Shown here: positions 4,592 through 32,340 of the stretch, in pieces
Numbering within the stretch: position 1 is the stretch's first letter
Layout: every line of letters begins with the position of its first letter
Assembly: GCA_043739065.1 (NCBI GenBank)
Contig: JAYUEU010000192.1
Coordinates: 1 to 46,201, forward strand
Direction of reading: 5' to 3'
Origin: Synechococcales cyanobacterium
Lineage (GTDB): Bacteria > Cyanobacteriota > Cyanobacteriia > Leptolyngbyales > Leptolyngbyaceae
DNA length: 46,201 bases
Position numbers and translations under genes: made by a program
The notes under the pieces: generated by a model
Database searches by the model: none
What the model was told of the DNA's origin: nothing
Seen by the model: the letters and a program-made list of their open reading frames with translations, nothing else

Positions 4592-5512
4592 TCACTTGGC
4601 ATCATGTGCTTCGACAAGAAACAGAATATTGGTTGCAGTGAGATTCAGTCCATAGCGAGCGATGTATTCTGGAACTATTATTGGGTCTACTCCCTGGCCA
4701 TGTCCACCGTTTTTGTTTCGAAGCGTAGGTACGCCGCTCTCTAATAAAGAGCGATAGGAACTCATTTGTGAATCAAGATATGGCGGGAGTATTCCTTGAG
4801 TTGTACAGATTCGAATTAGTTTACTTGCTGTGTCAGTCGGGTGACTTTCCCACCCGCGAATTTTACAGATAGCCTTCATTGTGCTTTCAAATGCTGCTAG
4901 TGAATTAACTAAACATCCTTTGTGTCTACCATGCCGATAGTGCTCATGAGCAAGTAAGAATTCGTCATTGGCACCCTTGAAGTCTTCGCCAGACAAGAGT
5001 TTTAGCGTAGGCTTTATAGCTTCAGCATGGAGAAATTCAGAATCAATTCGAATAAGCTTACTCGACTCAAATTGATATCCAACACCATTTTCTTTAAAAC
5101 GTTCATTTAAGGTCAAAATAGCATGATCAGGATTAATAGTTCCAGGTGTATGGCCATATAAGAAGGGATACTCATGTCTAATATTGGTATCTATTACCCG
5201 GAAGCATAAATCAATCGCATCCAATACTTGTTCAATTGACTCTTCTTCTAACAGAAACTTTAAGATTGGATAGACATTAGGCAGAGAATATTGAACGAGT
5301 TGTAAGAGTCCATGTTCTCGGCATAAAATATCCTGCACCAGTTCATAGGCATTGTCTTGCCCTCTATTTATACGTCCATGACCAAATGCATCACGAACTA
5401 TATAAGTAATTTGAACGCGTAACTTATGTGGTAACGAATCATAAACATAGACATCAGGAACCTCACCTTGCTCACGGCGCTGACGTTTAGAAAAAAGTTC
5501 AACGACTGTCAT
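4592..5512 (-). CDS. Abi-like protein (STM4504/CBY_0614-type N-terminus, Abi_C-like C-terminus)
   Basis: 306-aa ORF. The N-terminus FSKRQRREQGEVPDVYVYDSLPHKLRVQI and the C-terminal RNKNGGHGQG resemble abortive-infection AbiJ/Abi_C-type proteins, recalled from memory. No CGATCG hexamer is visible in the gene. Confidence 0.5.
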   Translation of the reverse strand: MTVVELFSKRQRREQGEVPDVYVYDSLPHKLRVQITYIVRDAFGHGRINRGQDNAYELVQDILCREHGLLQLVQYSLPNVYPILKFLLEEESIEQVLDAIDLCFRVIDTNIRHEYPFLYGHTPGTINPDHAILTLNERFKENGVGYQFESSKLIRIDSEFLHAEAIKPTLKLLSGEDFKGANDEFLLAHEHYRHGRHKGCLVNSLAAFESTMKAICKIRGWESHPTDTASKLIRICTTQGILPPYLDSQMSSYRSLLESGVPTLRNKNGGHGQGVDPIIVPEYIARYGLNLTATNILFLVEAHDAK

Positions 5513-13068: not shown

Positions 13069-15006
13069 ATGGTGAAGGTCGCATTGCTGATTGGGGTTGG
13101 GAATTACGAGTATCCGCATGATGTGATGCCGTTGGTGAGTGCGCCTAAAGATGTGGCAGCGATGCAGCGGATTCTCTTGAATCCTCAGATGGGGGACTTC
13201 TCTGAGGTTATACCGCTGATCGATCCTGACCCGATGCAAATGCAGGAAGCGATCGAAACGTTGTATCGCGATCGGGGAAAAGATGATCTCGTTCTACTAT
13301 TCTTCTCTGGTCATGGACTCAAAGATGATGGCGGCAAACTTTACTTTTCAACGCGATTAACCCGTAAAACGCTGAAAGGTGATCTAGTCAAATCGACAGC
13401 GGTGCCTGCCAGCTTTGTGCGAGAAATTATGGGCAACAGTCGATCGCGACGACAGGTCATGATTTTAGACTGTTGTTTTAGTGGAGCTTTTGACCCATCA
13501 CTTAATGCCAAGGATGATGGATCTCTGGATGTTCAAGGCCAACTCGGTGCAGAAGGGCGCGTTGTACTGACTTCTTCCAGTTCGACTCAGTATTCTTTTG
13601 AGCAACAAGGCTCAGAACTCTCGATCTACACGCGCTTTTTAGTCGAAGGGATTGAAACTGGCGCGGCGGATCGGGATAGCGATGGCAATGTTTCGGTGCG
13701 GGAATTGCATGAGTATGCGACCCAGAAGGTGCACGAGGCTGCACCAAAGATGAATCCCAAAATCATTGTGCTGAAGGATGAAGGTTTTGATGTGGTGTTT
13801 GCGAAGGCGCAAATTACTGATCCGAAGCTAAGGTACCGTAAGGAAGCAGAACGTTATTCAATGCGGGGCGAAATCTCTCCAGCCGGCCGGACGTTGCTTA
13901 ATACGCTGCGAGAGCGACTGGCGCTAACATTTGAAGAAACCCAAGAAATTGAAGATCAGATTTTACAACCGTTTCGGGAGCGTTTGCAGCATTTAGAGAC
14001 CTATCGCTCGACCTTTGTTGCAGAAGTCGAGCGTCAATATCCTTTTATGCAAGAAACTATCAATGAGTTGAAAGACTTACGGGAGATTCTGGGACTGAGA
14101 AAAGAGGATGTTACACCGGTTGAACAAGAAGTTATCTCGCAAATTGTTAGCAAGTCAGAAGCTTATCGACAAAAGCTACAACGGTATGAGCAAGAATTCA
14201 TCAGAGCTATTCAGGCTGAGTTTCCATTGAGTCAACCTGTTAGTGAGGGATTAAACAAGTTTCAAGCTGAATTGGGATTGATCGATGAGGATGTGGTACA
14301 AATCAAGCGCCCCATTCTTGAGCGTCGAGTTGCTGGGGATAAGCAACAAGAGTTAGAGCAGCAAAGGCAACAGGATTCAGAAAAAGTGCGACAACCAAAC
14401 GGGGCAATGCAAAGGCTGAAGGAAGATCATCCTCAACCAGATTCTTCGGCACATATACCTGTTCGTTCTAGCAAGTCACTATTGGCTGGAGCCTGTCTTT
14501 TATCGATGCTTGTTGCCGGAGGTCTTTTCTATTTCAAATCGACTTATCCACAACCTCAATCTGATGTTCAAGAATCGTCTAATTCTTCTGTTACATCAAC
14601 TCCCATAACTTCTCTGCCTTCTCCTCCTAAGCTAATAACTTCTCCATCTCCACAAGTCATTTTACCTAATACTCCTGTTTCTTCTTTATCACCACCTACT
14701 CCAAACCAAATTCTTACCCCAACACCAGTAGCTCGTCATCCGCCCACTCCAACTGTTCTACCTTTAAACGAGCGTAGGTACACAACTATTGAGACTGATG
14801 ATCACAAGATCGAGGTGCGAGAGACCCCTAAAACAGAGACTAAAAAATTTCTGACGCTAAAAGAAAATACAAATGTATTTTGTAGAGAGATAACGACAAC
14901 GGGTGAGAATGTTACGGTTAAAAATAAGTCTAGCGATCAGTGGAGATTCTGCCAAATGCCTGATAACTCTCATGGCTTCATCCACTCACTTCTCCTTACT
15001 CCTTAG
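13069..15006 (+). CDS. peptidase C14 caspase-family protein (orthocaspase) with helical repeats, a TM segment, a Pro/Ser/Thr linker and a C-terminal small beta domain
   Basis: VALLIGVGNYEY..., LLFFSGHGLKDDGGKLYF (His) and MILDCCFSGAF (Cys) form the caspase dyad. Three LGL..EE-type helical repeats occupy aa 270-420, and the TM segment is LLAGACLLSMLVAGGLFYF. Confidence 0.85.
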   Translation: MVKVALLIGVGNYEYPHDVMPLVSAPKDVAAMQRILLNPQMGDFSEVIPLIDPDPMQMQEAIETLYRDRGKDDLVLLFFSGHGLKDDGGKLYFSTRLTRKTLKGDLVKSTAVPASFVREIMGNSRSRRQVMILDCCFSGAFDPSLNAKDDGSLDVQGQLGAEGRVVLTSSSSTQYSFEQQGSELSIYTRFLVEGIETGAADRDSDGNVSVRELHEYATQKVHEAAPKMNPKIIVLKDEGFDVVFAKAQITDPKLRYRKEAERYSMRGEISPAGRTLLNTLRERLALTFEETQEIEDQILQPFRERLQHLETYRSTFVAEVERQYPFMQETINELKDLREILGLRKEDVTPVEQEVISQIVSKSEAYRQKLQRYEQEFIRAIQAEFPLSQPVSEGLNKFQAELGLIDEDVVQIKRPILERRVAGDKQQELEQQRQQDSEKVRQPNGAMQRLKEDHPQPDSSAHIPVRSSKSLLAGACLLSMLVAGGLFYFKSTYPQPQSDVQESSNSSVTSTPITSLPSPPKLITSPSPQVILPNTPVSSLSPPTPNQILTPTPVARHPPTPTVLPLNERRYTTIETDDHKIEVRETPKTETKKFLTLKENTNVFCREITTTGENVTVKNKSSDQWRFCQMPDNSHGFIHSLLLTP

Positions 15007-17624: not shown

Positions 17625-20048
17625 CTAAAAGTTAAAATCATCCATTCCAAGGCCCGGTAGATTTGGGGGCACCACGGCCAAGGGAGACGAGACCTTATAG
17701 CCTTCTCGCTTTGTCGCGATCTCAATGGCGATCGCCTCAATCTGAATCTCCAAACTGCCTAAGGGTACGGTGAATGTAGTGGTCGCTTCCATTGAGCGAT
17801 ACTGAGCATCGGGCACAAAATCTACTAAATAGCGCGGACCATCCAGTAAAGTACGGGTTTGCCGATCGTTGATCCAAAGTTTTACATAGAGCTTCGGCTG
17901 AATCATCGGCAGCTTCACTTTCACCATCAACGACTGTCCCGCCACCACTTCATCTACCGCCTCAATTTCCAAACTCGGGGTAGGCACCAATTCATCTACC
18001 CCAATCAAAAGCGGATTGTCGCCTGTATCCAACGCCGCCGGACCGATGTTGAACACATCATCCATAATCACCACGGACTCGGCAGACGGGGAGGTTCCTC
18101 TGGTAGAAGCAAAGGGATTGATGGAAGGTGCATCTGTCGGCGGGATGGCATTGATGGACTCGGTTTTGGTCTCTTCCGCGAAGGCACTCATGCGGTCCAT
18201 GAACCGATCGCCCAAGTTTAAGGATTCAAAGCGATCGTCTGAGGGCGATCGATCGTTAATTTGTTGGGCATTAATGTCGATGGTGAGCAGATCGTCTGGA
18301 TCATCTAAGTCCAACGGTGCACTGGTATTAAAGGCAAATTCCGACTGACTTAAATCAAGATTTTGATCTAGATCGTTATCCAAAAATGCCGCCTCTAGTC
18401 CATCATCAAAACGATCGAACTCTTCATTACTAATCGTTTCGGACGACGCCAATGCTGGAACTGGAAGCAACAGATTTTCTTCTGGTGAAACTTCTGGCGA
18501 AATATCGAACGGAACAGTTGAGGTATTTTCGAGAATCGCATCTTCTAACTGAACATCTTCTGATTGAGTGGGATCATCAAACGAGAATTCATCCAGCATC
18601 ACATCCTCAATCGCAAAATCATCAAACAGGTCCTGGACATCAGCTTCAGGAGTGGGAGCAGTTAAGAATGTGGGCAAAGAAGGAGAAGGCCGATCGTCAC
18701 GATTTTGGTCGGGTTGGTAGAGTTTCGGGGGAAGTTGGGATTTCGGCTGAACTTGAAAAGATGTGGGGGCAGTGGCGGGTTGATTGACCAGACCCAAAAA
18801 TTGATCATCAAGCTCTGGGCCAGACGGTTCAGCAGGCGGATGGGGCAATTCGTCCACAACGGGCGATCGAGTCTGGGATTCAAGGTCTTGCATGGTCGCC
18901 AACAGATCACTCAATGGCGCAAACAAGGTAAACCGATCGATCGCTAACGTATCGCCTGTCCGATTGTCCATTAAACACACTTCGCCCATCAGCATGGAGG
19001 AACCAGGTAATTCAGCCGGAAGCAGCAAACCGAGTTGCATGTCAAAGGGCAACGTAATTAGGGTAAATGGGGTCGAGCGTTCCACCACTAAGTAACCCTG
19101 CTGCGGATCGCGGACTCGCACGACAAAGGTACATTCCGGTAATGATCCAGAACTATTGGCTTGAACGATACCTTCAACAACGATCGTCTGTTCGGCCTGA
19201 ATTTCGTAGCTATTCGGCTGAAGAGAGAGCGTAATGGTTTGGCGATCGATGGAGAGTTCTGGGACAATCGGTTCTGGGGCGATCGGTTCTGCAACAGCCA
19301 AAACAATTGGGGGCGAGGCAATGGGCGGTGGTTCTACGACTTCTACAGATTCCGACGGCAATTCTGGCTGAACAGTCGGCCATTCGGAGATCAAGCCATC
19401 CAAACTCGCGAAAAGATCGTCTTCGGCGGTGGTTAAGTCATGCTCTGATTCATCAGGCATTGCCAAACTCGTCACCAAATCCGCCTCTTGTTGCTCCAAA
19501 GGTGAAACCAAGGGCAGCATCTGCGACGGATGCACTGGATCTGCAACAGGACTCACCGCAGCGTTCGGCTCTGGGTTTGACTCTGGGTTCAGCTCTGATA
19601 TTGGCTGTGGCGTTGACCCTAATTTCACCTCTGGTTCGGGCTGAGACCAGTCGGGTTCCCATTCGCCCGCCACGTCAGATTCTTTGGTCAATACGTGCAA
19701 TTGAACTGAATAGTGTTGAGTGGCACCACGAGCTTCATCACGGCTGGCATCATGGGGCACTCCGATCGCCAGTTCCCAGACTCCCGGCTGCATTTGGGTA
19801 AATGGAATCACCAGCAACAGTCCCTTTGCACTGGTTTCACCCGATCGCACTTGAGTCCGTCGTTTAGGCGGCAACTCGTCCGTAGACTCATGGGTAATCC
19901 GAATGTCCATCACCGTATCAGGCATGGCAGTTTTGACCATGACCCGGTAACGTCCTTCCAAAATTTCGACATCCGGCGATTCCAATGGCAACCAGGATCG
20001 ATCGCCTTCCTGCTGCAATAGAAATTCCCAATTGTTTGGTCCAGCCAT
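17625..20048 (-). CDS. large acidic Pro/Asp/Glu-rich hypothetical protein
   Basis: 807-aa uninterrupted ORF. Beta-rich segments sit at the N-terminus, middle and C-terminus, separated by long acidic low-complexity stretches. I recognise no motif. Confidence 0.55.
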   Translation of the reverse strand: MAGPNNWEFLLQQEGDRSWLPLESPDVEILEGRYRVMVKTAMPDTVMDIRITHESTDELPPKRRTQVRSGETSAKGLLLVIPFTQMQPGVWELAIGVPHDASRDEARGATQHYSVQLHVLTKESDVAGEWEPDWSQPEPEVKLGSTPQPISELNPESNPEPNAAVSPVADPVHPSQMLPLVSPLEQQEADLVTSLAMPDESEHDLTTAEDDLFASLDGLISEWPTVQPELPSESVEVVEPPPIASPPIVLAVAEPIAPEPIVPELSIDRQTITLSLQPNSYEIQAEQTIVVEGIVQANSSGSLPECTFVVRVRDPQQGYLVVERSTPFTLITLPFDMQLGLLLPAELPGSSMLMGEVCLMDNRTGDTLAIDRFTLFAPLSDLLATMQDLESQTRSPVVDELPHPPAEPSGPELDDQFLGLVNQPATAPTSFQVQPKSQLPPKLYQPDQNRDDRPSPSLPTFLTAPTPEADVQDLFDDFAIEDVMLDEFSFDDPTQSEDVQLEDAILENTSTVPFDISPEVSPEENLLLPVPALASSETISNEEFDRFDDGLEAAFLDNDLDQNLDLSQSEFAFNTSAPLDLDDPDDLLTIDINAQQINDRSPSDDRFESLNLGDRFMDRMSAFAEETKTESINAIPPTDAPSINPFASTRGTSPSAESVVIMDDVFNIGPAALDTGDNPLLIGVDELVPTPSLEIEAVDEVVAGQSLMVKVKLPMIQPKLYVKLWINDRQTRTLLDGPRYLVDFVPDAQYRSMEATTTFTVPLGSLEIQIEAIAIEIATKREGYKVSSPLAVVPPNLPGLGMDDFNF

Positions 20049-22889: not shown

Positions 22890-23156
22890 CTAATCTGCTG
22901 ACGGATAGGGCAAAACACAACAATTCACCCCTTCTAGACAAACCTTGCCCCATTGCAATGCCCATCGAAGTAACGCGACCCGATTATCGGTCTCCGTTTT
23001 AGTCAGAATATTGCTAATGTGGTTATCTACAGTCCGTTTACTGATATCAAGCTTTTCAGCAATATCTTGATTGGTTAAACCGGAAGCGACGAGTTCAAGA
23101 ACCTGTAGCTCACGATCGGAAAGCGAAGATTGAACTTGAAAATCCTTGTCCGCCAT
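22890..23156 (-). CDS. stand-alone LuxR/GerE-type HTH transcriptional regulator
   Basis: LSDRELQVLELVASGLTNQDIAEKLDISKRTVDNHISNILTK. The gene is divergent from the PP2C gene. Confidence 0.85.
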   Translation of the reverse strand: MADKDFQVQSSLSDRELQVLELVASGLTNQDIAEKLDISKRTVDNHISNILTKTETDNRVALLRWALQWGKVCLEGVNCCVLPYPSAD

Positions 23157-23319: not shown

Positions 23320-25704
23320 ATGGAAGATATCAAGCTACATTGTCCTAACCCATTTTGCAAACAGCCTAACGATCGAACGGCTGATTTTTGTTATAGCTGT
23401 CACACCTTTTTACCAAAACGCTATTTGTGGGTAGTGGGAAACGATCGTTCTCGACTTGTTCCTGGGATGGTTTTAGGAAATCGCTATGCAGTTTTAGAAG
23501 AAAATACTCTACTAGATTGTTATCCAGAAAATCCACCGGAAATGCCTGCTGAGATTTTTCTATCCCTGGAAGCCTATTTAAAGCTTAGTCATGCCGTTCC
23601 CCATGCACCCAAGGTCTATTGCATTTTAGAGATTGATGGAAAAGATTGCATTGTTTTAGAAGAGACGGCGATTTATTCCTATGTTATTTCAGTAATTCCA
23701 GAGGACGAGACAACGATCGCACCCAAAGCCGGAACATTAATGCCCATATTGCAAGAATGCTGGGGTTCTGCGAGCAATTTTCGTCTCTTAAATTGGATTT
23801 ATCAGATTGCTACGATTTGGGATAGATTCAAGACTCTTGGCGCTTCACAGACTTTATTTGACCCATATTGTATTCGGGTTGATGGCGGATTAATTAAGAT
23901 ATTAGAGCTTCGTTTTGATTCAAAAGAGACTGTCGATAACACTCTTCCAGTTCTTCTCCAACATTTAATTCATTACAGCGATCGATCGAATCTAAAACCA
24001 GATCTAACGATAATGCGCCGTTTAAGAGAAATATATGAGCGATTGATCCACGAGGCCGAGGAAGATCAAAGTTATCTATTATGCGAATGGCTGGATCAAG
24101 AGATGATCCACCATAGTTCTGGATCACTCGATATTGAAATTGTTACTCAAACGGATCAAGGCCCAAATCGAAAACGTAATGAAGATGCTTGCTATCCTAC
24201 TTCTACCCAAAAAGTAACTATTTCCCGATCGAAATCAACTGATCTAGAAAAACCATTGTTAATTGTATGTGATGGAATTGGTGGTCATGAAGGCGGTAAT
24301 ATTGCATCTAATTTAGCGATCGAAACTTTGACAACTGTATTAGATGCTCGAATTCCTAAAGCGATCGGATATGAAAAAAAGGTTGATACAACTCAAGTTG
24401 TACGAGAAGGAATTCAAATTAGTAACGATGCAATTTCCGATCGTAATGATCAAGAAGGTCGTAGCGATCGACAACGTATGGGAACAACTGTTGTTTTAGC
24501 TAGAGTTGAAGGTCAACGATTACAACTTGCTCATGTTGGAGATAGCCGAGCCTATCGAATTACAGCCCGAGCTTGTTACCAACTTACCGTTGATGATGAC
24601 ATTGCTTCTCGGGAAGTAAGATTAGGCTATACGTTATATCGTGATGCGCTTCAGCGTAGTGGGACGGGTGCATTGACACAGGCATTAGGAATGGTGTCAT
24701 CTTCTCTTCTACATCCAAGAATTCAAACCTCGTTTGTCGATGAAGACTGTATTTATTTACTTTGTTCTGATGGACTGAGTGATTACGATCGGATTGAACA
24801 ATGTTGGGCGCAGGAATTGATTCCGGTATTACAGGGTCGAATTCAACTTGCGGATGCTTGTCAAAGTCTAATTGAAATTGCCAATGCTCATAATGGTCAT
24901 GATAATGTGACGGTTGGATTATTATATTGTCGCGTTCCAGACGAAACCGTACTGTCTAATGGTTCTCCAACTCGATCAACATTACTCCCAATTTGGGGTT
25001 CAAAGTCAAGTGCTAAGTCTAAGCGTAAAGACGATCGTGATTTGAGCCAAGTCCCTCCAACAACAACATCTTCAACTCAATTGGTCGAACCGCATAGAAG
25101 AGGGAAACGATCGCAGGGAACTCAGAAATCCAATGGTTCCCAGGGGCGATGGATTTTTCTGTTTTCCGTTTTGGCCGCCATTGGTGTTGTTACTGGAATT
25201 TTAGTTTTACTATTCAAGCCCGATCGTCAAGTAGAATTGCCAACTCCTGTTGCTATTGCATCGCCGTTCCCAAATGGATTAAAAGTGAATCAGCTTATTA
25301 AAGTTGTACCAGTATTGAATCCAATGTCAACTCCAAGTCCAACGTCTAGTTCAGTTCCAAATTTATCCGCTGTGGGCCAGCCTAGTTCAGAAATTCCAGC
25401 CAATTTAATCCTGGTTCCTAAACCGCCGTCACTTCTCGGGACACCTGTTGAAACCTTTGAAGTGAATGTTGGCGAAGTGGCTCCGGGAGCGGTGATGCGG
25501 GTGGTCGATCGGCAAGTGCGAGGAACAAAGCCTTGGATTAAGCTCCAAATTTGTAGTGTGGCAACGATCGGCGAAACTAAGCAGCTGAAACCTGGTGTTG
25601 AGGGGTGGTATGCCGAGCCAATGTTGTTATCGCAGGTTGTTGCTGTGACATCAGAATTGCCCCCTACTGCGCTTTCTGCTTGCCCTATGTTGAAGTCTAA
25701 GTAA
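23320..25704 (+). CDS. PP2C-family Ser/Thr phosphatase with N-terminal zinc ribbon, an uncharacterised ~240-aa domain, a TM segment and a C-terminal extracytoplasmic beta domain
   Basis: CPNPFCKQPN...CYSCH forms the zinc ribbon. PP2C motifs are RKRNEDAC, VCDGIGGHEGG, MGTTVV, HVGDSRAY, LCSDGLSD and GHDNVTV. The TM segment is WIFLFSVLAAIGVVTGILVLLF. Confidence 0.85.
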   Translation: MEDIKLHCPNPFCKQPNDRTADFCYSCHTFLPKRYLWVVGNDRSRLVPGMVLGNRYAVLEENTLLDCYPENPPEMPAEIFLSLEAYLKLSHAVPHAPKVYCILEIDGKDCIVLEETAIYSYVISVIPEDETTIAPKAGTLMPILQECWGSASNFRLLNWIYQIATIWDRFKTLGASQTLFDPYCIRVDGGLIKILELRFDSKETVDNTLPVLLQHLIHYSDRSNLKPDLTIMRRLREIYERLIHEAEEDQSYLLCEWLDQEMIHHSSGSLDIEIVTQTDQGPNRKRNEDACYPTSTQKVTISRSKSTDLEKPLLIVCDGIGGHEGGNIASNLAIETLTTVLDARIPKAIGYEKKVDTTQVVREGIQISNDAISDRNDQEGRSDRQRMGTTVVLARVEGQRLQLAHVGDSRAYRITARACYQLTVDDDIASREVRLGYTLYRDALQRSGTGALTQALGMVSSSLLHPRIQTSFVDEDCIYLLCSDGLSDYDRIEQCWAQELIPVLQGRIQLADACQSLIEIANAHNGHDNVTVGLLYCRVPDETVLSNGSPTRSTLLPIWGSKSSAKSKRKDDRDLSQVPPTTTSSTQLVEPHRRGKRSQGTQKSNGSQGRWIFLFSVLAAIGVVTGILVLLFKPDRQVELPTPVAIASPFPNGLKVNQLIKVVPVLNPMSTPSPTSSSVPNLSAVGQPSSEIPANLILVPKPPSLLGTPVETFEVNVGEVAPGAVMRVVDRQVRGTKPWIKLQICSVATIGETKQLKPGVEGWYAEPMLLSQVVAVTSELPPTALSACPMLKSK

Positions 25705-25815
25705 GATTTGGATTGATCGTGTAAGACACTGACGTTTAGAAATACTCACATTTAACAATACTCACATTTAGAAATACTATGGAGATCTGTATGCACTTGC
25801 CCGATGTGAGTTTCC

Positions 25816-27447
25816 ATGACCATTCCTTCTCTGAATCTTGCGATCGATCGTCTCCGTGCCACGGGAGTTTGTCATTTTGCGGTACATGTAATTAATGCGC
25901 CTTATCGGGCTGGGTATTTGCTGCAAGATGTTCTGTGGGAAGAAGCGATGGCCCAGGTTTGGGGCGCTTGGCAAGAAATGTTTGCGATGCGATCGGTGCC
26001 CATGGTGCCCTATTTGTCTGGAGTTGTAGTTCACGATCGAGCCGCGATAACCGATAGTCCTGGAAGTGCATTGCCCTATAGTGTTCGATTGATGCAAACC
26101 TTAGGAATTCATCTTTGGCAATGGTTGTTCAGTGGTTCAATTCAAACTGCATTAAATCAAAGTCAAGGGATTGCAATGGGTCGAAATCAGCCGTTGCGAG
26201 TGCGGTTGGATGTGCGGGATCCAGATTTAATTGGAATTCCCTGGGAGATTATGCAAGCTCAAGCCGGAGTGCCTGCGATCTCATTAGGACAACAGGTGTT
26301 GTTTAGTCGAACTATTAGCGATGTTGGTGCATTGCGACCGATGCGATCGGACCAGATGGTGAATGTGTTGGTGGTATTGGGGCAAGATGCAACGATCGCG
26401 AATGGACCCATGACTACTTCACCCCCAAAAACTAGCTCCGAAACTAGTTCCGAAACGAAGACAGTCCGTCTACGCCTTGAACAAGAAGCTGTAGCCCTAC
26501 GTCGGGTGCTAGAAAATGTCAGCCACTTTGCCACAACAGCCGGATGCTTTGTCGATACTTTAGTCCAGCCCACACCCGCCGAGCTGTTGCAGAAGTTGAA
26601 TTCTGGTCGATATAATGTGCTGTTTTATGCGGGGCACGGGGTTCCAGCTCCCGATGGTGGGATGTTGTTTTTGAGTCCGACAGGGACTATGAATGGTACT
26701 GAATTGGCTCAGGTGTTGACGCGGGTGGGGGTGAAATTGGCGGTGTTTAATGCCTGTTGGGGCGCGCTGCCAGATCAACGATCGGGGCAAACGATTCCTC
26801 GGAGCAGTTTGGCAGAAGTGCTGTTGCATCATGGGGTTCCGGCAGTGTTGGCCATGCGGGATTCTATTACTGATGATGAAGCATTAGCCTTTATTCAGAC
26901 GTTTGCTCAAGCGTTGGCGGAACGGTTGTCGATTGATCATGCGGTGGCGATCGCTCGTCAAAATCTATTGACCTTATTCAAATTCAATCAACAAGCTTGG
27001 ACGCTTCCAGTGTTGTATATGCACCCCGAGTTTGATGGAGAATTGGTGAAACCCTTAGCCGAGGGCTTAACTCAAATTCCTATGAACCCCACGCAGTTTG
27101 CTAAACGGGTTGCTGTGGCAGGATTGCGATCGATCGATAAAACTCAGACCTGGATTTTGCGAGGCGGCTTAATGAGTGTGGGAATAAGCGATGAGAATGA
27201 TGTGGTGCTAGACGATCCTGGAGTGTCTCGTCGCCATGCCGAGATATTTTGCCGTGATGGATTCACCAATTCTAATGCGCCGACCTATTTTCTTAAAGAT
27301 TTATCCCGGTATGGGACTTGGGTGCTAGATGCTACGGGTTGGCAAAAAATAAATCACCAGGAAGTACAACTTTTTCCAGGAATGCAGGTGAAGTTTGGGG
27401 GGTCGCAGAATATGGCGATGGAGTTTGTGGTGGATGAAGAAAATTAG
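25816..27447 (+). CDS. CHAT-domain (caspase-like) protein with C-terminal FHA domain
   Basis: YNVLFYAGHG and LAVFNACWGA give the His/Cys dyad of the CHAT/caspase fold. The C-terminal VGISDENDVVLDDPGVSRRHAEI...LKDLSRYGTWV is a canonical FHA domain. Confidence 0.8.
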   Translation: MTIPSLNLAIDRLRATGVCHFAVHVINAPYRAGYLLQDVLWEEAMAQVWGAWQEMFAMRSVPMVPYLSGVVVHDRAAITDSPGSALPYSVRLMQTLGIHLWQWLFSGSIQTALNQSQGIAMGRNQPLRVRLDVRDPDLIGIPWEIMQAQAGVPAISLGQQVLFSRTISDVGALRPMRSDQMVNVLVVLGQDATIANGPMTTSPPKTSSETSSETKTVRLRLEQEAVALRRVLENVSHFATTAGCFVDTLVQPTPAELLQKLNSGRYNVLFYAGHGVPAPDGGMLFLSPTGTMNGTELAQVLTRVGVKLAVFNACWGALPDQRSGQTIPRSSLAEVLLHHGVPAVLAMRDSITDDEALAFIQTFAQALAERLSIDHAVAIARQNLLTLFKFNQQAWTLPVLYMHPEFDGELVKPLAEGLTQIPMNPTQFAKRVAVAGLRSIDKTQTWILRGGLMSVGISDENDVVLDDPGVSRRHAEIFCRDGFTNSNAPTYFLKDLSRYGTWVLDATGWQKINHQEVQLFPGMQVKFGGSQNMAMEFVVDEEN

Positions 27448-27759
27448 AGCAAATTGGATCAGAAATGCATTCAGCACGCTGTTTTGAGCTTAAAACCAAG
27501 TCTTGAATCTATAACTTCTTGACTATAAAAATTACGAAACATCATGAAAGTTGTCGAATTGATTGCAATTAGTTAAGTTCTAATTCATAGTTCAGTAAAA
27601 ATTTGTAAACGAGTAGAAATTATAATGAAGCAACCTACTCGAAATCTACCCGATTTATGGATCCAGGTAAGTTGATGTTTTCTGGTTGATTTTTTTTGTT
27701 GTCTCGGTTTGATGGGTCGATCGAAATTTAGCTCTATTTTTTACTAAAGGGACTTTGCT

Positions 27760-28413
27760 GTGATTTATAGCTGTGATCTGCCAAGTGGCCAAACGCTTTA
27801 TCTTCAAAACCAAGGTGATATGACCAATGCAACGGTATTGATGAAGCAATCGGGGCAACAGCAGCAGTCTGGTAGCAGCGTTATGACGGGAACTTGGCAG
27901 ATTCAGCCGGAAGTCTTTGCGATGGTTGGTGGGGCTGTTGTTCGCTTGACAACCTCGACGGGAGTTTGGTCTTTGATGGTTCAGGGGATGAGTTTGTCGG
28001 TACAGTCGGGTGCGGTAGAGATGGGCAATCAAGTGATGGGATTAACTGTGCGGTCTCAGATGCCAAATGTGGCAAGCAGTTCATTCTCAATGCCGCCTAT
28101 GACACCAATGACCTCTATGCCGCCGATGCCGCCGATGGGGATGAATATGAATCCTATGCAAATGCAGATGGGAAATATGGGGATGAGTATGGGTGGATCA
28201 TTGAGTAGCCAAGCGAGTAGTAATGTGAGTTCTAGCAGTAATTCTGGTGGGAATGGTGCGGCAAGTCTTTCGCGAGATAGCCCTTCACAAGATAGTCCAG
28301 GAAAGGCTTCTGGCAATGTGAAATCGGGCAATGTGAAATTCTGTAGCCAATGTGGGACGGGCGTGAAAGTGGACGATCGGTTTTGTTCGAGTTGCGGACA
28401 TCCGTTGCGCTAA
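27760..28413 (+). CDS. Met-rich protein with C-terminal double zinc ribbon
   Basis: 217-aa ORF (GTG start, uncertain). A 36-aa stretch contains 14 Met (MPPMTPMTSMPPMPPMGMNMNPMQMQMGNMGMSMGG, nt 28090-28197). The C-terminus is FCSQCG...FCSSCGHPL. Confidence 0.6.
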   Translation: MIYSCDLPSGQTLYLQNQGDMTNATVLMKQSGQQQQSGSSVMTGTWQIQPEVFAMVGGAVVRLTTSTGVWSLMVQGMSLSVQSGAVEMGNQVMGLTVRSQMPNVASSSFSMPPMTPMTSMPPMPPMGMNMNPMQMQMGNMGMSMGGSLSSQASSNVSSSSNSGGNGAASLSRDSPSQDSPGKASGNVKSGNVKFCSQCGTGVKVDDRFCSSCGHPLR

Positions 28414-28478
28414 CTATTGCGTTAGATAGCGGTTTCTAGGATTTAGATTATTAGGCCAGTTGGCTAAAGGAGTTTAGT

Positions 28479-29294
28479 TTGCAACATCTACACCGATCGG
28501 AACGAACAGAAATTGAACAATTTTGGACCGCAAAAGTTGCAGCGCTGGGTGCCGAATTGGGCGTGGACCGTCGTCGTGCTGAGCGTCTATTACATCGTGT
28601 GATTCATAACTATCGGAATCCTGTCGAACTCGATCGGTATGGGTTGTCTGAACCTGTGATCGGCGTGGGTGGCGTGATGCACTACGGTATGGATGCTGAG
28701 GTTGAAGATTCTTCTTGGACTATTGGATATTTTTGGCGGGCGGATGGGTTGCCGATTTGGTGTGATCCGCTATTGATAGCAAACGATCGGGGAATTACAT
28801 CTATTGAGTCGGGGCAGGAATTTTCCGATCGGTTGGTGCTGTTGTTGGGGATCAGTTCTGATTTTATGAGTTCTGATTTGACGGTGACAGTTCGCAATGG
28901 CACGTTGTATGTGTTTTTGCCGCCGATCGTTTGCGAGCTTCTGTTTTTAAAAGTGGTTCATGCCATTGAGCTGATCGCTGTATTTATGATGATGCCTGTG
29001 CGACTTGAAGGGTTTGGCCCACCTGTTGGCGACATCATTTGTGGGTTTGAGATTATGCCCGGTTTGGATATTTCTGAAGTCAATATTCATCCAGTTCAGC
29101 CTTGGCCTCAATTGTTGGTGTTTAATTCTATTTTGGAACGATCGGCAATAGCAGTGAAATTGACAATGCAGTTTTCTTGGAATGGCCAATGTTTGGAGCC
29201 AATTGAAGAAGTTGTTCAGACTGGTTTTCCTTCTAGTGTATTTCTGCGATCGGCGACTGAGACTCGATCGCTTCAAAGTGCAGTCACGGCGTAA
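28479..29294 (+). CDS. hypothetical protein resembling a fragment of DUF2126 (large transglutaminase-associated family)
   Basis: 271-aa ORF with a TTG start. LYVFLPP...PVRLEGFGPP.D...EVNIHP...W..L parallels the LH.FMPP...V.LEGY.PP.D...VTPDPGVIEVNIHPA.SW.EL block I recall from ~1100-aa DUF2126 proteins. Confidence 0.4.
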   Translation: MQHLHRSERTEIEQFWTAKVAALGAELGVDRRRAERLLHRVIHNYRNPVELDRYGLSEPVIGVGGVMHYGMDAEVEDSSWTIGYFWRADGLPIWCDPLLIANDRGITSIESGQEFSDRLVLLLGISSDFMSSDLTVTVRNGTLYVFLPPIVCELLFLKVVHAIELIAVFMMMPVRLEGFGPPVGDIICGFEIMPGLDISEVNIHPVQPWPQLLVFNSILERSAIAVKLTMQFSWNGQCLEPIEEVVQTGFPSSVFLRSATETRSLQSAVTA

Positions 29295-29470: not shown

Positions 29471-29911
29471 ATGGATTTTGTAACGCCGTTGTTGGGTTTG
29501 TTGGTGCCGCATTTACCGGGGTTGTTAAAGAAGGCGGCGGAAGATGTTGCGGGGGAAGGCGCGAAGAAGGCTGTGTTTGCGGCGGTGCCTGCGGGGGTGA
29601 AGGCGATTTGGGAGAAGTTGCTGCCGAAGGTCGAGAAAAATCCGGTGGCGAAGGCGAGTGTGGCGGCTGTGGTGGATCAGCCGGAGAATCAGGATTCTCT
29701 TGAGATGCTAAAGCTGGCATTGAAGCAGGTGTTGCAAGGGATCGAGAAGTCGGAACCGGAGTTGGTGGCGGAGTTGCGGAAGTTGATGGATGAGGATAAG
29801 GCGGATGCTTCGGGTGGAAATTCGGCGACAGTAACGGCAGGGACTATTTATAGTTCTGTGGTTGGTGATGGGGCGAATGTGACGCAGACGATCGGTTCTC
29901 CAGAGAAATGA
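29471..29911 (+). CDS. small alpha-helical protein (Bell/HeLo-analogous candidate) with a C-terminal amyloid-type signalling motif
   Basis: 146-aa ORF with a hydrophobic, Gly/Ala/Lys-rich helical N-terminus (MDFVTPLLGLLVPHLPGLLKKAAEDVAGEGAKKAVFAAV...). Its C-terminal 26-mer also occurs at the N-terminus of the next gene. Confidence 0.55.
   Translation: MDFVTPLLGLLVPHLPGLLKKAAEDVAGEGAKKAVFAAVPAGVKAIWEKLLPKVEKNPVAKASVAAVVDQPENQDSLEMLKLALKQVLQGIEKSEPELVAELRKLMDEDKADASGGNSATVTAGTIYSSVVGDGANVTQTIGSPEK
29819..29896 (+). other. C-terminal signalling motif NSATVTAGTIYSSVVGDGANVTQTIG
   Basis: 15 of 26 residues are identical, ungapped, to nt 30226-30303 of the downstream NLR. Confidence 0.7.
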
Positions 29912-30180: not shown

Positions 30181-32340
30181 ATGACGATCGTAAATCCCGA
30201 TGATAATCTCAATCTATCTGCAAAGAATTCCGCGAATGTGAATGCGGAAACAATCTACAGTTTGATCATTGGTGACAATGCGACGGTGAATCAGCAGATT
30301 ATTCAGCAGCAACGAAAAAGGAGGTTGTTTCAGCTTGCGGAGGACAGTCCTGATTTTACGGGCCGATCGCAGGAAACGGAAACTATTGAGAAGATTTTGA
30401 AGGGTGATTCTCCGACGGCGATGATTTCGGTGGTGTCGGGGATGGGCGGGGTGGGGAAATCGATGTTGGCGCGACATGTGGGAAATCGGTTGAAGGCGCA
30501 GTTTCCCGATGGACAGCTTTATGTGGATTTGTTGGGGCAGTCGGATACTTGTCGATCGGCGGATTCGGTGTTGGTTGAGTTTTTGGTGGATGGGTTTGGG
30601 GAAGATCCGCAGCATTTGCCGTTTGAGTTGGATGCGTTGCGGAAGTTGTTTCACGATCGCCTTTCTGGTTGCAAGATTTTGGTGGTGTTGGATAATGCGG
30701 GGGATGCGCTTCAGGTGGAGCCGTTGTTGCCACGGGTGCGGGGGTGCGGGGCGATCGTGACGAGTCGGGAGCCGTTGATGAATTTGGCGGGGATGACGGC
30801 GGAGAATTTTGTGTCGTTGGATGTGATGACGGAGGGGGAGGCGACGGAGCTTGTTCAACGGTTGTGTCCTAAGAAGACGGTGGATGTTGGGTTGGTGAAA
30901 TTGTTGGTGGGGCTGTGTGGGCGGTTGCCGTTGGCGTTGACGATCGTGGGGAAACTTTTGCTTCAGACGGCTTCGTTGACGCTGGTGGAGGTGATGGCGG
31001 AGTTGTCTAAGGAACGATCGCGGTTACGTGCGTTGAAGTATGTGGGAAGTGATAATCAGGTGGATGCTCGGTTGGATGTGGAGGCGAGTTTTAATTTGAG
31101 CTATGTGCGGTTGAATGAGTCGCAGCGGGGACTTTTTGAGGCGGTGGCACTGTTGCGGGGACGAGATTTTGGGCGGGAGTTGGCGGCGGTGATGGTGGGC
31201 CGGGAGGAGGCTGAGGTGCGGCGGGAGCTAGATCAGTTAGTGGCGTTGCAGTTGGTGCAGTGGGAGGTGGGGCGTTATGGGTTTCATGATTTGGTGCGGG
31301 AGTTTGGACGGGGGAAGCTGGGGGCGGAGCGGGAACAGGCGCTGACGGAGGTGGCGTTGGGCTGGTATGTGGCGATGGCGGATCAGATGAAAAAACTGTT
31401 GCTAACTGATGAATCGGTTGCAGTTAAAATGGCAATTCAGCAGTTTGAATCAGAGTGGCAAAATTTATTACAAGCAATTACGTGGTCGTCAGAAATCAAG
31501 GAAAATTCGTCAGCTATCAAGCTTTTTCAAGATGTTCAGTATTATGCGTCGTTGCGAGGATTCCGTACTCAACAATTGTTAGAAGTAGGTTTTCAGACGC
31601 TAACAACTGCTCAATTAATCGGCGATCGAGTGGGAGAAGCGAATACGTTAAAAGCGATCGGCGATGTATTGCAATTTCTAGACCAGCGTCAGGATGCGTT
31701 AAATCGATATGAAACGGCGATGGAGATTTATCGTCAAGTGGGCTCTCGACTGGGAGAAGCGAATACGTTAAAAGAGATCGGCGATGTATTGCAGTTTCTA
31801 GACCAGCGTCAGGATGCGTTAAATCGATATGAAACGGCGATGGAGATTTATCGTCAAGTGGGCGATCGACTGGGAGAAGCGAATACGTTAGACAGTTTTG
31901 CCTTAGCAAATTTTTCTGGTGAGAACTATTTGAAAGCGATTGAATGTCACCAGCAAGCACTCGACATTTTTACACTGATTGAATCTCGATATGATATTGC
32001 TTGGTCACTACGATATTTAGGAAAAGTACATCTCAAATTAGGTGATTCATGGAAAGCAAAGGAATTCTTTGAGAAAGCCGCCACACTTTTTGAAGCTTTA
32101 GAAATGGACGATTCAGCTCAAGCTTGTCAGCAGGAAATCAAAAATCTCAATCCAAATATCGTACCCGGCACCTTACCCAAAGCACCCAACATTAGCGACG
32201 ACCTCACCCCCCGCAAGAAAAAGCCACAGTTTCCCCTTTGGCAAAGTGCGATCGTCCTTCTGGTGTTGGGCATTGGCTGGCTAGCCATCAAACCCCATGC
32301 TCCCGCGCCGCAGAATGGTGAAGTGAGACAGGCGAAGTGA
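30181..32340 (+). CDS. NB-ARC STAND NTPase (bacterial NLR) with N-terminal amyloid-type motif, TPR sensor repeats and a C-terminal TM segment
   Basis: Walker A GMGGVGKSMLA, Walker B KILVVLDNA, RNBS-B-like AIVTSRE, GLPL motif CGRLPLAL and MHD-like FHDLVREF. About 6 TPR-like 40-aa units (GEANTL..IGDV....) follow, then the tail FPLWQSAIVLLVLGIGWLAI. Confidence 0.85.
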   Translation: MTIVNPDDNLNLSAKNSANVNAETIYSLIIGDNATVNQQIIQQQRKRRLFQLAEDSPDFTGRSQETETIEKILKGDSPTAMISVVSGMGGVGKSMLARHVGNRLKAQFPDGQLYVDLLGQSDTCRSADSVLVEFLVDGFGEDPQHLPFELDALRKLFHDRLSGCKILVVLDNAGDALQVEPLLPRVRGCGAIVTSREPLMNLAGMTAENFVSLDVMTEGEATELVQRLCPKKTVDVGLVKLLVGLCGRLPLALTIVGKLLLQTASLTLVEVMAELSKERSRLRALKYVGSDNQVDARLDVEASFNLSYVRLNESQRGLFEAVALLRGRDFGRELAAVMVGREEAEVRRELDQLVALQLVQWEVGRYGFHDLVREFGRGKLGAEREQALTEVALGWYVAMADQMKKLLLTDESVAVKMAIQQFESEWQNLLQAITWSSEIKENSSAIKLFQDVQYYASLRGFRTQQLLEVGFQTLTTAQLIGDRVGEANTLKAIGDVLQFLDQRQDALNRYETAMEIYRQVGSRLGEANTLKEIGDVLQFLDQRQDALNRYETAMEIYRQVGDRLGEANTLDSFALANFSGENYLKAIECHQQALDIFTLIESRYDIAWSLRYLGKVHLKLGDSWKAKEFFEKAATLFEALEMDDSAQACQQEIKNLNPNIVPGTLPKAPNISDDLTPRKKKPQFPLWQSAIVLLVLGIGWLAIKPHAPAPQNGEVRQAK
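30226..30303 (+). other. N-terminal signalling motif NSANVNAETIYSLIIGDNATVNQQII
   Basis: It matches the C-terminal motif of the upstream 146-aa ORF (NSA.V.A.TIYS...GD.A.V.Q.I). Confidence 0.7.
31621..31890 (+). repeat. 2.25 copies of a 120-bp in-frame tandem repeat inside the TPR region of the NLR
   Basis: 31621-31740 and 31741-31860 differ at 6 of 120 positions, and their second halves are 60/60 identical. 31861-31890 starts a third copy. Confidence 0.95.

What the first reader, a model, noticed from the sequence alone, without database searches (positions are those of the whole stretch)
23320..29294. PP2C phosphatase + CHAT(caspase-like)-FHA + Met-rich zinc-ribbon + DUF2126-like fragment: a possible phospho-threonine-gated protease module
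Four co-directional genes follow a divergent LuxR-type regulator.
- A membrane-anchored PP2C phosphatase with an N-terminal zinc ribbon and an extracytoplasmic C-terminal domain.
- A protein with the CHAT His/Cys dyad (FYAGHG / FNACWG) fused to a canonical FHA phosphothreonine-binding domain.
- A zinc-ribbon protein with an extreme Met-rich tract.
- A 271-aa ORF resembling an internal piece of DUF2126.

Established knowledge: FHA domains read pThr marks that PP2C enzymes erase. CHAT domains are caspase-fold proteases that act as effectors in several bacterial conflict systems.

Inference: the protease could be recruited or restrained by a phosphorylation state that the phosphatase resets. No cognate Ser/Thr kinase lies in the cluster, so the kinase would have to act in trans, or the ~240-aa N-terminal domain of the PP2C protein would have to be a degenerate kinase-like sensor. 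I am not aware of a characterised system with this composition.
Basis: partly seen in the sequence, partly recalled or inferred. Interest (0 to 1): 0.75.

Follow-up and report, generated by a model that had tools for sequence, protein, structure and literature searches.

The report
Pseudokinase-phosphatase paired with FHA-tagged CHAT protease
Two of the four flagged genes, a membrane phosphatase carrying a dead kinase domain and a HetF-like protease carrying a phosphothreonine-reader domain, form a widely conserved and apparently undescribed cyanobacterial gene pair that probably links threonine phosphorylation to regulated proteolysis, while the other two genes are only local neighbours.

Summary
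All four ORFs and their domains are at the stated coordinates. Only two form a conserved unit.

- **The pair.** The PP2C gene lies directly upstream of CHAT-FHA, on the same strand, in 46 of 65 cyanobacterial loci with enough flank.
- **The protease.** Its His/Cys dyad is invariant in 81 of 81 orthologues, and ω is 0.05–0.09.
- **The phosphatase N-domain.** It folds as a protein kinase (best match the M. tuberculosis MviN pseudokinase) but lacks the catalytic residues.
- **A docking candidate.** T-[Q/R]-x-[LIVM] sits just before the membrane helix in 120 of 155 relatives (about 16 expected).
- **The real third partner.** An uncharacterised 209-aa protein ("C1") follows CHAT-FHA in 65 of 76 loci. 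It is absent from this window.
- **Not module members.** The Met-rich zinc-ribbon gene is adjacent in only five loci and lies in unrelated contexts in three other genera. The DUF2126 piece occurs only in L001–L003. The "LuxR" gene is PedR.
- **The FHA domain.** It is not fully canonical.

Single-copy occurrence, synteny with housekeeping genes and no PADLOC hit argue for core signalling, not defence. No kinase is linked.

The parts
23320..25704 (+). Gene for a 794-aa membrane phosphatase: zinc ribbon, pseudokinase, PP2C, linker, TM helix, periplasmic domain
   Evidence: ORF. Pfam PP2C and NCBIfam PRK14559/Stp1 matches. An orthologue is directly upstream of CHAT-FHA in 46 of 65 loci.
23341..23403 (+). 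4-Cys zinc ribbon (residues 8-28, CPNPFC...CYSCH)
   Evidence: C8, C13, C24 and C27 are invariant in alignment A2. The profile matches RanBP2-type and eS31 zinc ribbons only weakly (E 0.07-5).
23416..24135 (+). Kinase-fold domain lacking catalytic residues (pseudokinase, residues ~33-272)
   Evidence: AF2 model with pLDDT 87.7 and pTM 0.85. All top 50 Foldseek PDB hits are kinase domains; the best is Rv3910/MviN pseudokinase 3ouk/3uqc (E 2.9e-4, TM 0.46-0.50). No invariant Lys and no HRD or DFG Asp among the conserved columns. No Pkinase Pfam hit.
24148..24939 (+). PP2C catalytic domain (residues 277-540) with all metal-binding motifs
25072..25086 (+). Juxtamembrane S-T-Q-L-V (Thr586): candidate phospho-Thr docking site for the FHA domain
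   Evidence: T-[QR]-x-[LIVM] lies within 40 aa before the TM helix in 120 of 155 family members, against 16.3 expected from shuffles. Alignment shown. Its role as a docking site is inferred.
25150..25215 (+). Single transmembrane helix (residues 611-632)
   Evidence: Maximum Kyte-Doolittle 19-residue window of 2.76.
25216..25701 (+). Extracytoplasmic C-terminal domain with a small beta-rich core and two conserved Cys
   Evidence: AF2 model with pLDDT 76.8. No significant PDB match, only weak SH3-like hits (E > 0.4).
25816..27447 (+). Gene for a 543-aa soluble CHAT-FHA protease
   Evidence: 586 tblastn-confirmed relatives in the GTDB species-representative genomes. dN/dS 0.05-0.09. No TM segment.
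26107..26985 (+). CHAT caspase-fold protease domain; His274 (26635-26637) and Cys314 (26755-26757) form the dyad
   Evidence: G-H-G and N-x-C are invariant in 81 of 81 orthologues. The closest named family is HetF (NCBIfam 166 bits, far below the 1200 equivalog cutoff).
27136..27405 (+). FHA domain: S471-R472-x-H474 retained; 'GR' Arg replaced by Ile457; 'NG' Asn replaced by Tyr499
   Evidence: Pfam FHA 1e-13. In 26 of 26 orthologues lacking Arg457, Arg472 is present.
27760..28413 (+). Met/Pro-rich zinc-ribbon protein: a neighbour only, not a conserved module member
   Evidence: Adjacent to CHAT-FHA only in the window and L001-L004. The family has 118 members, and three checked in other genera lie in unrelated contexts. 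dN/dS about 0.25.
28479..29294 (+). Short DUF2126-derived ORF: found only in the closest relatives, not a module member
   Evidence: Best Pfam stretch covers positions 328-436 of 826. Present only in L001-L003. dN/dS 0.16-0.32.
22890..23156 (-). PedR (LuxR-type) regulator: housekeeping synteny partner, not module-specific
   Evidence: NCBIfam PedR equivalog, 152.5 bits against a cutoff of 120. Upstream only in L001-L012, L016 and L042.

Best explanation
The functional unit is a two-gene core signalling module of cyanobacteria, three genes in most species. It is not a four-gene cluster.

Gene 1 encodes a bitopic membrane protein. Its cytoplasmic part holds a zinc ribbon, a catalytically dead kinase-fold domain and an active PP2C phosphatase. 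A Ser/Thr-rich juxtamembrane linker carrying a conserved T-[Q/R]-x-[LIVM] motif follows, then one TM helix and a small periplasmic domain. Gene 2 encodes a soluble HetF-like CHAT cysteine protease with a C-terminal FHA domain.

Proposed mechanism (inferred):
1. A Hanks-type kinase encoded elsewhere phosphorylates a threonine on the phosphatase protein. The most likely site is the juxtamembrane motif, and the pseudokinase domain may serve as the kinase-docking scaffold.
2. The FHA domain of the protease binds that phosphothreonine. This brings the protease to, or holds it at, the membrane receptor.
3. The PP2C domain removes the mark in cis and resets the switch.
4. The protease output is site-specific regulatory cleavage, as HetF does to PatU3, rather than cell killing.

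Shown here: domain identities, the kinase fold without catalytic residues, pair conservation, dyad invariance, the motif enrichment and the absence of a linked kinase. Inferred: who phosphorylates what, what the FHA domain binds, and the substrate.
For: - Adjacency on the same strand in 46 of 65 loci across several cyanobacterial orders, with different outer flanks. The median gap is 126 bp. A 43%-identical member has a stop/start overlap.
- The dyad is invariant in 81 of 81 orthologues, and FHA Ser471, His474, Gly500 and Thr501 are also invariant.
- Every orthologue keeps at least one of two Arg positions. All 26 that lack Arg457 have Arg472.
- The N-domain model is confident, and all top 50 structural hits are kinases. 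The best is the MviN pseudokinase. That pseudokinase's phosphorylated tail recruits the FHA protein FhaA (PMC12599244).
- The juxtamembrane motif is present in 120 of 155 relatives against 16.3 expected. From general knowledge, it fits the pT-x-x-[I/L/V] preference of many bacterial FHA domains.
- All PP2C metal-binding motifs are intact.
- HetF is an experimentally shown site-specific CHAT protease (PMC9457339).
- dN/dS is 0.05-0.09 for CHAT-FHA and 0.11-0.16 for the PP2C gene, comparable to HisRS.
- The gene occurs once in each of 80 assemblies, and its identity falls in parallel with that of the neighbouring HisRS.
Against: - No experiment exists, and no phosphosite is known.
- In 19 of 65 loci the PP2C gene is not adjacent. 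It is encoded elsewhere in at least two of those genomes (P0268 for L058 and P0247 for L028).
- The window's FHA domain lacks the canonical 'GR' Arg and 'NG' Asn, so phosphothreonine binding is not guaranteed.
- In the window clade the motif is S-T-Q-L-V, about 25 residues from the TM helix. It lacks the Lys of the usual K-T-Q and aligns imperfectly.
- Foldseek TM-scores are modest (0.46-0.50).
- The sequences are related by descent, so the motif and covariation counts overstate independence.
- The usual third partner, C1, is missing here, so this lineage may work differently.
Confidence: 0.5

Rival explanations
1. Phospho-degron model. The FHA domain does not dock on the phosphatase. Instead it reads a phosphothreonine on a third protein, which the CHAT domain then cleaves. 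The PP2C protein antagonises this by dephosphorylating the same substrate, so the two neighbours act in opposition on a shared target.
For: The pair is conserved. FHA-PP2C antagonism on shared substrates is established in other bacteria (general knowledge). A conserved third gene, C1, follows CHAT-FHA in 65 of 76 loci and could be that substrate. It carries a conserved ...LARPLAYAMRG... stretch, and HetF cleaves after Arg.
Against: The C1 consensus has no conserved threonine, whereas the phosphatase linker has a nearly invariant one. C1 is absent from this window and its clade, yet the pair remains under strong constraint.
Confidence: 0.2
2. Conflict or abortive-infection system. The CHAT protease is a toxic effector held in check by phosphorylation state and released on phage attack.
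For: CHAT domains serve as effectors in several conflict systems (general knowledge; CHAT is listed among BASS-associated effectors). A paralogue, P0006, sits in a Trypco1-MoxR-CHAT neighbourhood. In this window a Bell/BASS-NLR pair lies immediately downstream. A caspase-domain gene and an AbiJ-like gene lie within the window.
Against: There is no significant PADLOC hit for any of the four proteins and no PHROGs signal beyond generic PP2C. The gene is single-copy in 80 of 80 assemblies and lies in syntenic housekeeping context with PedR, HisRS, PsaL or peptide deformylase. Its ω of 0.05-0.09 is like HisRS. No repeats flank the locus. The downstream NLR pair is not conserved next to it. The closest characterised CHAT is the divisome protease HetF.
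Confidence: 0.1
3. The two genes are merely syntenic neighbours with no functional link.
For: Intergenic gaps are often above 100 bp. A weak promoter-like site lies in the gap at 25752-25780. The pair is separated in 19 of 65 loci.
Against: Adjacency persists while the outer flanks change completely between clades. One domain reads and the other erases the same mark. A stop/start overlap occurs in a divergent member.
Confidence: 0.1

Closest known systems
M. tuberculosis MviN (Rv3910) pseudokinase / FhaA / PknB module
   Same: A membrane protein carries an intracellular catalytically dead kinase-fold domain. This was the best structural match to our N-domain. Its phosphorylated tail recruits an FHA-domain protein (PMC12599244). 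A PP2C enzyme erases the mark in that system (PstP; general knowledge).
   Different: Here the pseudokinase is fused to the PP2C eraser itself rather than to a lipid II flippase. The FHA reader is fused to a CHAT protease rather than to a scaffold. Sequence identity is only 14%. The phylum differs, and no kinase is linked.
HetF-PatU3 proteolytic pathway of Anabaena PCC 7120
   Same: HetF is the closest named relative of this CHAT domain. HetF-like proteins are 33-39% identical over ~320 aa, and the NCBIfam HetF model gives 9.6e-49. Both have a Cys-dependent CHAT domain. HetF performs site-specific regulatory cleavage after Arg117 of PatU3 and is a divisome component.
   Different: HetF has a TM helix and a periplasmic TPR domain and has no FHA domain. 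The window protein is soluble and has FHA. It scores far below the HetF equivalog cutoff (166 against 1200). Its substrate is unknown.
FHA/PP2C/Hanks-kinase operons (mycobacterial fhaA-fhaB-pstP-...-pknA-pknB; T6SS PpkA-PppA-Fha1)
   Same: These are genomically linked phosphothreonine reader (FHA) and eraser (PP2C) pairs that control a cellular machine (general knowledge; reviewed in PMC6213207, listed).
   Different: Those operons encode the active kinase. Here only a dead kinase fold is present, and the output domain is a protease.
CHAT effectors of conflict systems (MoxR/vWA ternary systems; NLR/BASS-associated CHAT)
   Same: They share the protease fold. One CHAT-FHA paralogue, P0006, lies in a Trypco1-MoxR-CHAT neighbourhood.
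   Different: The window gene belongs to the single-copy orthologous group in conserved housekeeping synteny, which is paired with the PP2C gene. It is not in a variable island and has no significant PADLOC hit.

Membership tests
PP2C (PPM) Ser/Thr phosphatases | Profile match above the curated cutoff | tested here: met
   PF00481 34.8 bits (cutoff 20.3) and PF13672 32.0 bits (cutoff 24). PDB tPphA E 4e-21.
PP2C (PPM) Ser/Thr phosphatases | Metal-coordinating Asp motifs (xED, DGxGG, GDSR, SDG, DN) | tested here: met
   NEDA 287-290, DGIGGH 318-323, GDSR 407-410, SDGLSD 483-488 and HDNVT 527-531. They are nearly invariant in A3.
NCBIfam PRK14559 / Stp1 equivalogs | Whole-protein score at or above the equivalog cutoff | tested here: not met
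   243.6 bits against a cutoff of 374, and 147.9 against 230. The protein is related but not an equivalog.
Protein-kinase-like fold (pseudokinase) | Bilobal kinase fold | tested here: met
   AF2 pLDDT 87.7. The top 50 Foldseek hits are all kinase domains with probability up to 1.00 and TM 0.46-0.50.
Active Hanks-type Ser/Thr kinases | Beta-3 Lys, HRD Asp, catalytic-loop Asn and DFG Asp; Pkinase profile match | tested here: not met
   No Pkinase Pfam hit. No invariant Lys or Asp at the corresponding elements: 'LLD' on the third core strand, 'TLF/TLL' after the long helix, 'LEL' in place of DFG. Residues were mapped by order of secondary-structure elements, not by superposition.
CHAT (PF12770) clan CD proteases | Profile match plus the His/Cys catalytic dyad | tested here: met
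   74.9 bits against a cutoff of 24. His274 and Cys314 are invariant in 81 of 81 orthologues.
HetF (NF045509 equivalog) | Score at or above 1200 bits; CHAT + TM + periplasmic TPR architecture | tested here: not met
   166 bits. No TM segment. No TPR, and an FHA domain instead.
FHA (PF00498) | Profile match above the cutoff | tested here: met
   51.9 bits against a cutoff of 20.7.
FHA (PF00498) | Canonical phosphothreonine-contact residues (G-R, S-x-x-H, N-G) | tested here: inconclusive
   Gly456, Ser471 and His474 are present. The 'GR' Arg is Ile457 and the 'NG' Asn is Tyr499. Arg472 is always present when Arg457 is absent (26 of 26), which suggests compensation.
DUF2126 (PF09899) | Full-length domain coverage | tested here: not met
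   The score is above cutoff (75.3 against 27), but the best stretch covers only positions 328-436 of 826.
Known anti-phage defence systems (PADLOC-DB 2.0) | Any component model matched | tested here: not met
   No hits for PP2C, the zinc-ribbon protein or the DUF2126 fragment. CHAT-FHA gives only BovA at E 0.008 with no stretch passing on its own.
PedR (NF052366) | Equivalog cutoff | tested here: met
   152.5 bits against a cutoff of 120.
Bell/BASS-NLR amyloid signalling pair (downstream neighbour) | A short motif shared between the C-terminus of a small effector and the N-terminus of an adjacent collinear NB-ARC/TPR protein | tested here: met
   15 of 30 residues identical, E 4e-9. NB-ARC plus TPR confirmed. 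The architecture is as described in bioRxiv 10.1101/2020.01.06.895854. Bell-domain homology itself was not tested.

The most novel reading that the evidence does not exclude
Many cyanobacteria, mostly filamentous ones, share a previously undescribed phosphothreonine switch. In it, a pseudokinase-PP2C membrane receptor recruits a HetF-like CHAT protease through its FHA domain, at a conserved juxtamembrane pT-Q-x-L site. The uncharacterised protein C1 acts as substrate or co-factor. The switch would couple an envelope or periplasmic signal to irreversible proteolytic control of a core process such as division or envelope growth. This would be a bacterial case of a protease directly gated by Ser/Thr phosphorylation.
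Probability: 0.3. Interest if true: 0.75.

Novelty: new variant of a known kind. Interest (0 to 1): 0.58.

Why it matters
FHA/PP2C phosphothreonine signalling and CHAT proteases are each well known.

The pair occurs in several hundred cyanobacterial species. It therefore probably marks an unstudied core regulatory pathway related to the HetF division and differentiation protease. It offers a concrete, testable route to how HetF-like proteases are regulated, and to how bacterial Ser/Thr phosphorylation can drive irreversible proteolytic decisions. It also adds a well-defined family to the poorly explored bacterial pseudokinases.

Tried and rejected
- **Homolog searches that failed.** The search for homologous proteins timed out three times. 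I used the exhaustive representative search instead.
- **Exact-sequence lookup.** The window's CHAT-FHA is not on record.
- **Sequence profile of the PP2C N-domain against PDB.** It saw only the zinc ribbon. The kinase fold emerged only from structure.
- **Periplasmic C-terminal domain.** The fold search was inconclusive, with weak SH3-like hits only.
- **C1 in this lineage.** I looked for it in the window and in the window-clade loci by tblastn and by six-frame HMM. It is absent. Pfam and NCBIfam give nothing for C1.
- **HltA.** The 'ubiquitous cyanobacterial PP2C' is a GAF-PP2C of Group II, a different family.
- **PrpJ1/PrpJ2 of Anabaena.** This was a memory lead for a membrane PP2C, and I could not test it. 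The literature search returned no paper describing their architecture.
- **CHAT-FHA in the literature.** Searches for CHAT with FHA in cyanobacteria found nothing relevant. Kaur et al. 2020 mention FHA only sporadically and do not use the term 'CHAT'.
- **Uninformative scans.** Promoter and terminator scans were at or below shuffle expectation. Rfam gave no hits. PHROGs gave only generic PP2C.
- **Pseudogene hypothesis for the DUF2126 fragment.** Rejected on ω of 0.16-0.32 and stable ORF length.

Full report
**1. Observation**

Pfam, NCBIfam and PDB-sequence searches confirm the domain assignments.
- The 88-aa divergent gene is a GerE/LuxR protein and, more precisely, the PedR equivalog.
- The 794-aa protein is a PP2C phosphatase. 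Its catalytic domain spans residues 277-540, and its closest solved structure is cyanobacterial tPphA. It also has an N-terminal 4-Cys zinc ribbon and one strong TM helix at residues 611-632.
- The 543-aa protein carries CHAT and FHA domains.
- The 217-aa protein has a C-terminal zinc ribbon after a Met/Pro-rich tract.
- The 271-aa ORF matches DUF2126, and its best-scoring stretch covers only positions 328-436 of the 826-position profile.

No Rfam family, unusual repeat or informative promoter or terminator signal lies in the region.

**2. Which genes belong together**

An exhaustive search with the CHAT-FHA protein found about 20 full-length CHAT-FHA cluster representatives at 40-58% identity. 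After these, scores drop sharply to HetF-like proteins of 800-1000 aa.

A scan of GTDB species-representative genomes gave 586 confirmed relatives. The best 80 loci come from 80 different assemblies, mostly of filamentous cyanobacteria: Leptolyngbyales, Phormidesmis, Alkalinema, Coleofasciculaceae, Microcoleus, Symploca and others. L001, a Synechococcales MAG, is 96% identical to the window.

I compared all window proteins with these loci by tblastn and clustered all neighbouring ORFs de novo. The results were as follows.
- **PP2C gene.** The orthologue, including its N-terminal domain, lies immediately upstream on the same strand in 46 of 65 loci that have at least 2.6 kb of upstream sequence.
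- **C1.** An acidic protein of about 209 aa lies immediately downstream on the same strand in 65 of 76 loci with enough downstream sequence. It has no Pfam or NCBIfam match and carries the motifs YPWNP...LARPLAYAMRG...EQARLSLAIARYAL. All three genes are present in 36 of 63 loci.
- **C1 in this lineage.** It is absent from the window and from the window's clade (L001-L006, L016, L042), even by six-frame HMM search.
- **Zinc-ribbon gene.** It follows CHAT-FHA only in the window and L001-L004.
- **DUF2126 piece.** It is found only in L001-L003.
- **PedR-HisRS-PsaL block.** It lies upstream only in L001-L012, L016 and L042.

The zinc-ribbon protein belongs to a wider family of 118 proteins. In Pantanalinema, Hydrococcus and Phormidesmis it lies in unrelated contexts with no CHAT, FHA or PP2C gene nearby. 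A homologue (P0381) named for Pantanalinema sp. GBBB05, the genome of L055, is on a 425-kb contig, while the CHAT-FHA locus there is on a 141-kb contig.

A 43%-identical CHAT-FHA (P0014) has the PP2C gene upstream with a stop/start overlap. Where the PP2C gene is not adjacent, an orthologue exists elsewhere in at least two of those genomes (P0268 for L058 and P0247 for L028).

The conserved unit is therefore PP2C followed by CHAT-FHA, followed by C1 in most species. The window carries a derived form without C1.

**3. Anatomy of the pair**

*CHAT-FHA.* The G-H-G and N-x-C dyad motifs are invariant in 81 of 81 orthologues, as are FHA residues Ser471, His474, Gly500 and Thr501. The canonical 'GR' arginine is present in only 55 of 81. 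In the window's whole clade it is Ile, Leu or Met. The canonical 'NG' Asn is usually Tyr, Phe or Trp.

In all 26 orthologues lacking Arg457, the residue after the conserved Ser (position 472) is Arg. Among the 55 with Arg457, position 472 is Arg in only 21. Every orthologue thus keeps at least one Arg at these two positions, which suggests retained phosphate binding with an altered geometry. This is inference, and phylogenetic non-independence applies. The protein has no TM segment.

*PP2C protein.* All metal-binding motifs are intact.

Residues 1-277 were modelled with 39 homologues, giving pLDDT 87.7 and pTM 0.85. All 50 best PDB matches are protein-kinase domains. The top two are the intracellular kinase-homology domain of M. 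tuberculosis Rv3910/MviN (3ouk and 3uqc, E 2.9e-4 and 1.6e-3, TM 0.45-0.50).

The family alignment has no invariant Lys and no Asp at the HRD or DFG positions. No Pkinase profile hit exists, and a sequence profile against PDB finds only the zinc ribbon. The domain is therefore a pseudokinase.

The otherwise variable juxtamembrane linker contains a nearly invariant Thr within [LM]-K-T-[QR]-x-[LVI]. T-[QR]-x-[LIVM] occurs within 40 residues before the TM helix in 120 of 155 family members, against 16.3 expected from shuffling the same residues. The window has S-T-Q-L-V at residues 585-589.

The periplasmic domain model (pLDDT 76.8) has no significant structural match.

*Kinase.* Only one Hanks-kinase signature was found across the 80 loci and the window. 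The writer of the mark acts in trans.

**4. Selection and inheritance**

dN/dS against L001-L003:

| Gene | dN/dS |
|---|---|
| CHAT-FHA | 0.05-0.09 |
| PP2C | 0.11-0.16 |
| HisRS | 0.07-0.11 |
| Zinc-ribbon gene | about 0.25-0.28 |
| DUF2126-like ORF | 0.16-0.32 |

The DUF2126-like ORF is a maintained short gene, not a decaying pseudogene. CHAT-FHA identity falls in step with the adjacent HisRS across L001-L012. The gene occurs once in each of the 80 assemblies, with no flanking repeats. PADLOC finds nothing significant. These features describe a vertically inherited core gene pair, not a mobile defence island.

**5. Mechanism**

The best precedent is the top structural hit itself. [quoted passage not shown]

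By analogy, I propose the following.
1. A trans-acting Hanks kinase phosphorylates the phosphatase protein, most likely at the juxtamembrane Thr.
2. The FHA domain of the soluble CHAT protease docks there.
3. The cis PP2C domain erases the mark.
4. The protease performs site-specific regulatory cleavage, as shown for its closest characterised relative HetF, which cleaves PatU3 after Arg117 and acts at the divisome (PMC9457339 and PMC8406250).

C1 is a candidate substrate or cofactor in most species.

The rivals are a phospho-degron model in which the two proteins oppose each other on a shared substrate, a conflict system, and mere synteny. A CHAT-FHA paralogue lacking the catalytic Cys (P0006) does sit in a Trypco1-MoxR-CHAT neighbourhood. 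The architecture can therefore be recruited to conflict systems, but that is not the orthologous group found here.

**6. Comparison and novelty**

The module works like FHA/PP2C/Hanks-kinase circuits and like MviN-FhaA.

It is not HetF (166 bits against a 1200 cutoff, and a different architecture). It is not HltA, which is a GAF-PP2C. It is not a known defence system. Public sources call these proteins only 'CHAT domain/FHA domain', 'PP2C family phosphatase' or 'hypothetical protein'. No paper in the searchable library describes the pairing, although absence from that library is not proof of absence.

I rate it a new variant of a known kind, with moderate to high interest for cyanobacterial cell biology and bacterial Ser/Thr signalling.

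Noticed in passing
window 29471-29911 (+) and 30181-32340 (+): A 146-aa ORF with no Pfam match is followed by an NB-ARC/TPR (NLR-like) protein. The ORF's C-terminus and the NLR's N-terminus share a 30-residue motif (15 of 30 identical, E 4e-9). This is the Bell-type effector / BASS amyloid-signalling / NLR gene-pair architecture described by Dyrka et al. The pair is not conserved next to CHAT-FHA outside L001 and L003.
   Followed up: partly
window 31621-31890: Three tandem 120-nt units, 96% identical over the two full copies, lie inside the TPR region of the NLR gene. Highly conserved internal repeats are reported as typical of NLRs.
   Followed up: no
L007-L080, immediately downstream of CHAT-FHA (for example L007:11802-12455): 'C1' is an acidic protein of about 209 aa with no Pfam or NCBIfam match. 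It is conserved directly after CHAT-FHA in 65 of 76 loci but absent from the window's clade. Its motifs include YPWNP, LARPLAYAMRG and EQARLSLAIARYAL.
   Followed up: partly
27 loci, for example L015:12900-14333 (-): A second FHA-protease fusion lies convergent to C1. It joins an N-terminal FHA domain to a multi-TM PrsW-like intramembrane protease and is followed by peptide deformylase. It is absent from the window.
   Followed up: partly
L087:1501-8154: A 717-aa CHAT-FHA paralogue (P0006) that lacks the catalytic Cys sits after Trypco1, a MoxR-type AAA+ protein, a 641-aa protein and a second CHAT protein. This is a conflict-system-type neighbourhood.
   Followed up: no
window 13069-15006 (+) and 4592-5512 (-): A 645-aa Peptidase_C14 (caspase-domain) protein and an AbiJ_NTD4 + DUF7014 protein lie elsewhere in the window. 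An ABC1 atypical kinase lies at 1552-3291.
   Followed up: no
window 17625-20048 (-): An 807-aa acidic, Pro/Asp/Glu-rich protein has no Pfam or NCBIfam match. It is conserved in synteny next to PsaL in L001-L004, L006-L008, L010-L012 and L042.
   Followed up: no
window 27760-28413 (+): The Met/Pro-rich tract (MPPMTPMTSMPPMPPMGMNMNPMQMQMGNMGMSMG) of the zinc-ribbon protein recurs in relatives (L001-L004), and in L004 it is expanded into MQPMPG repeats. It resembles Met-rich metal-binding tracts, but this was not tested.
   Followed up: no
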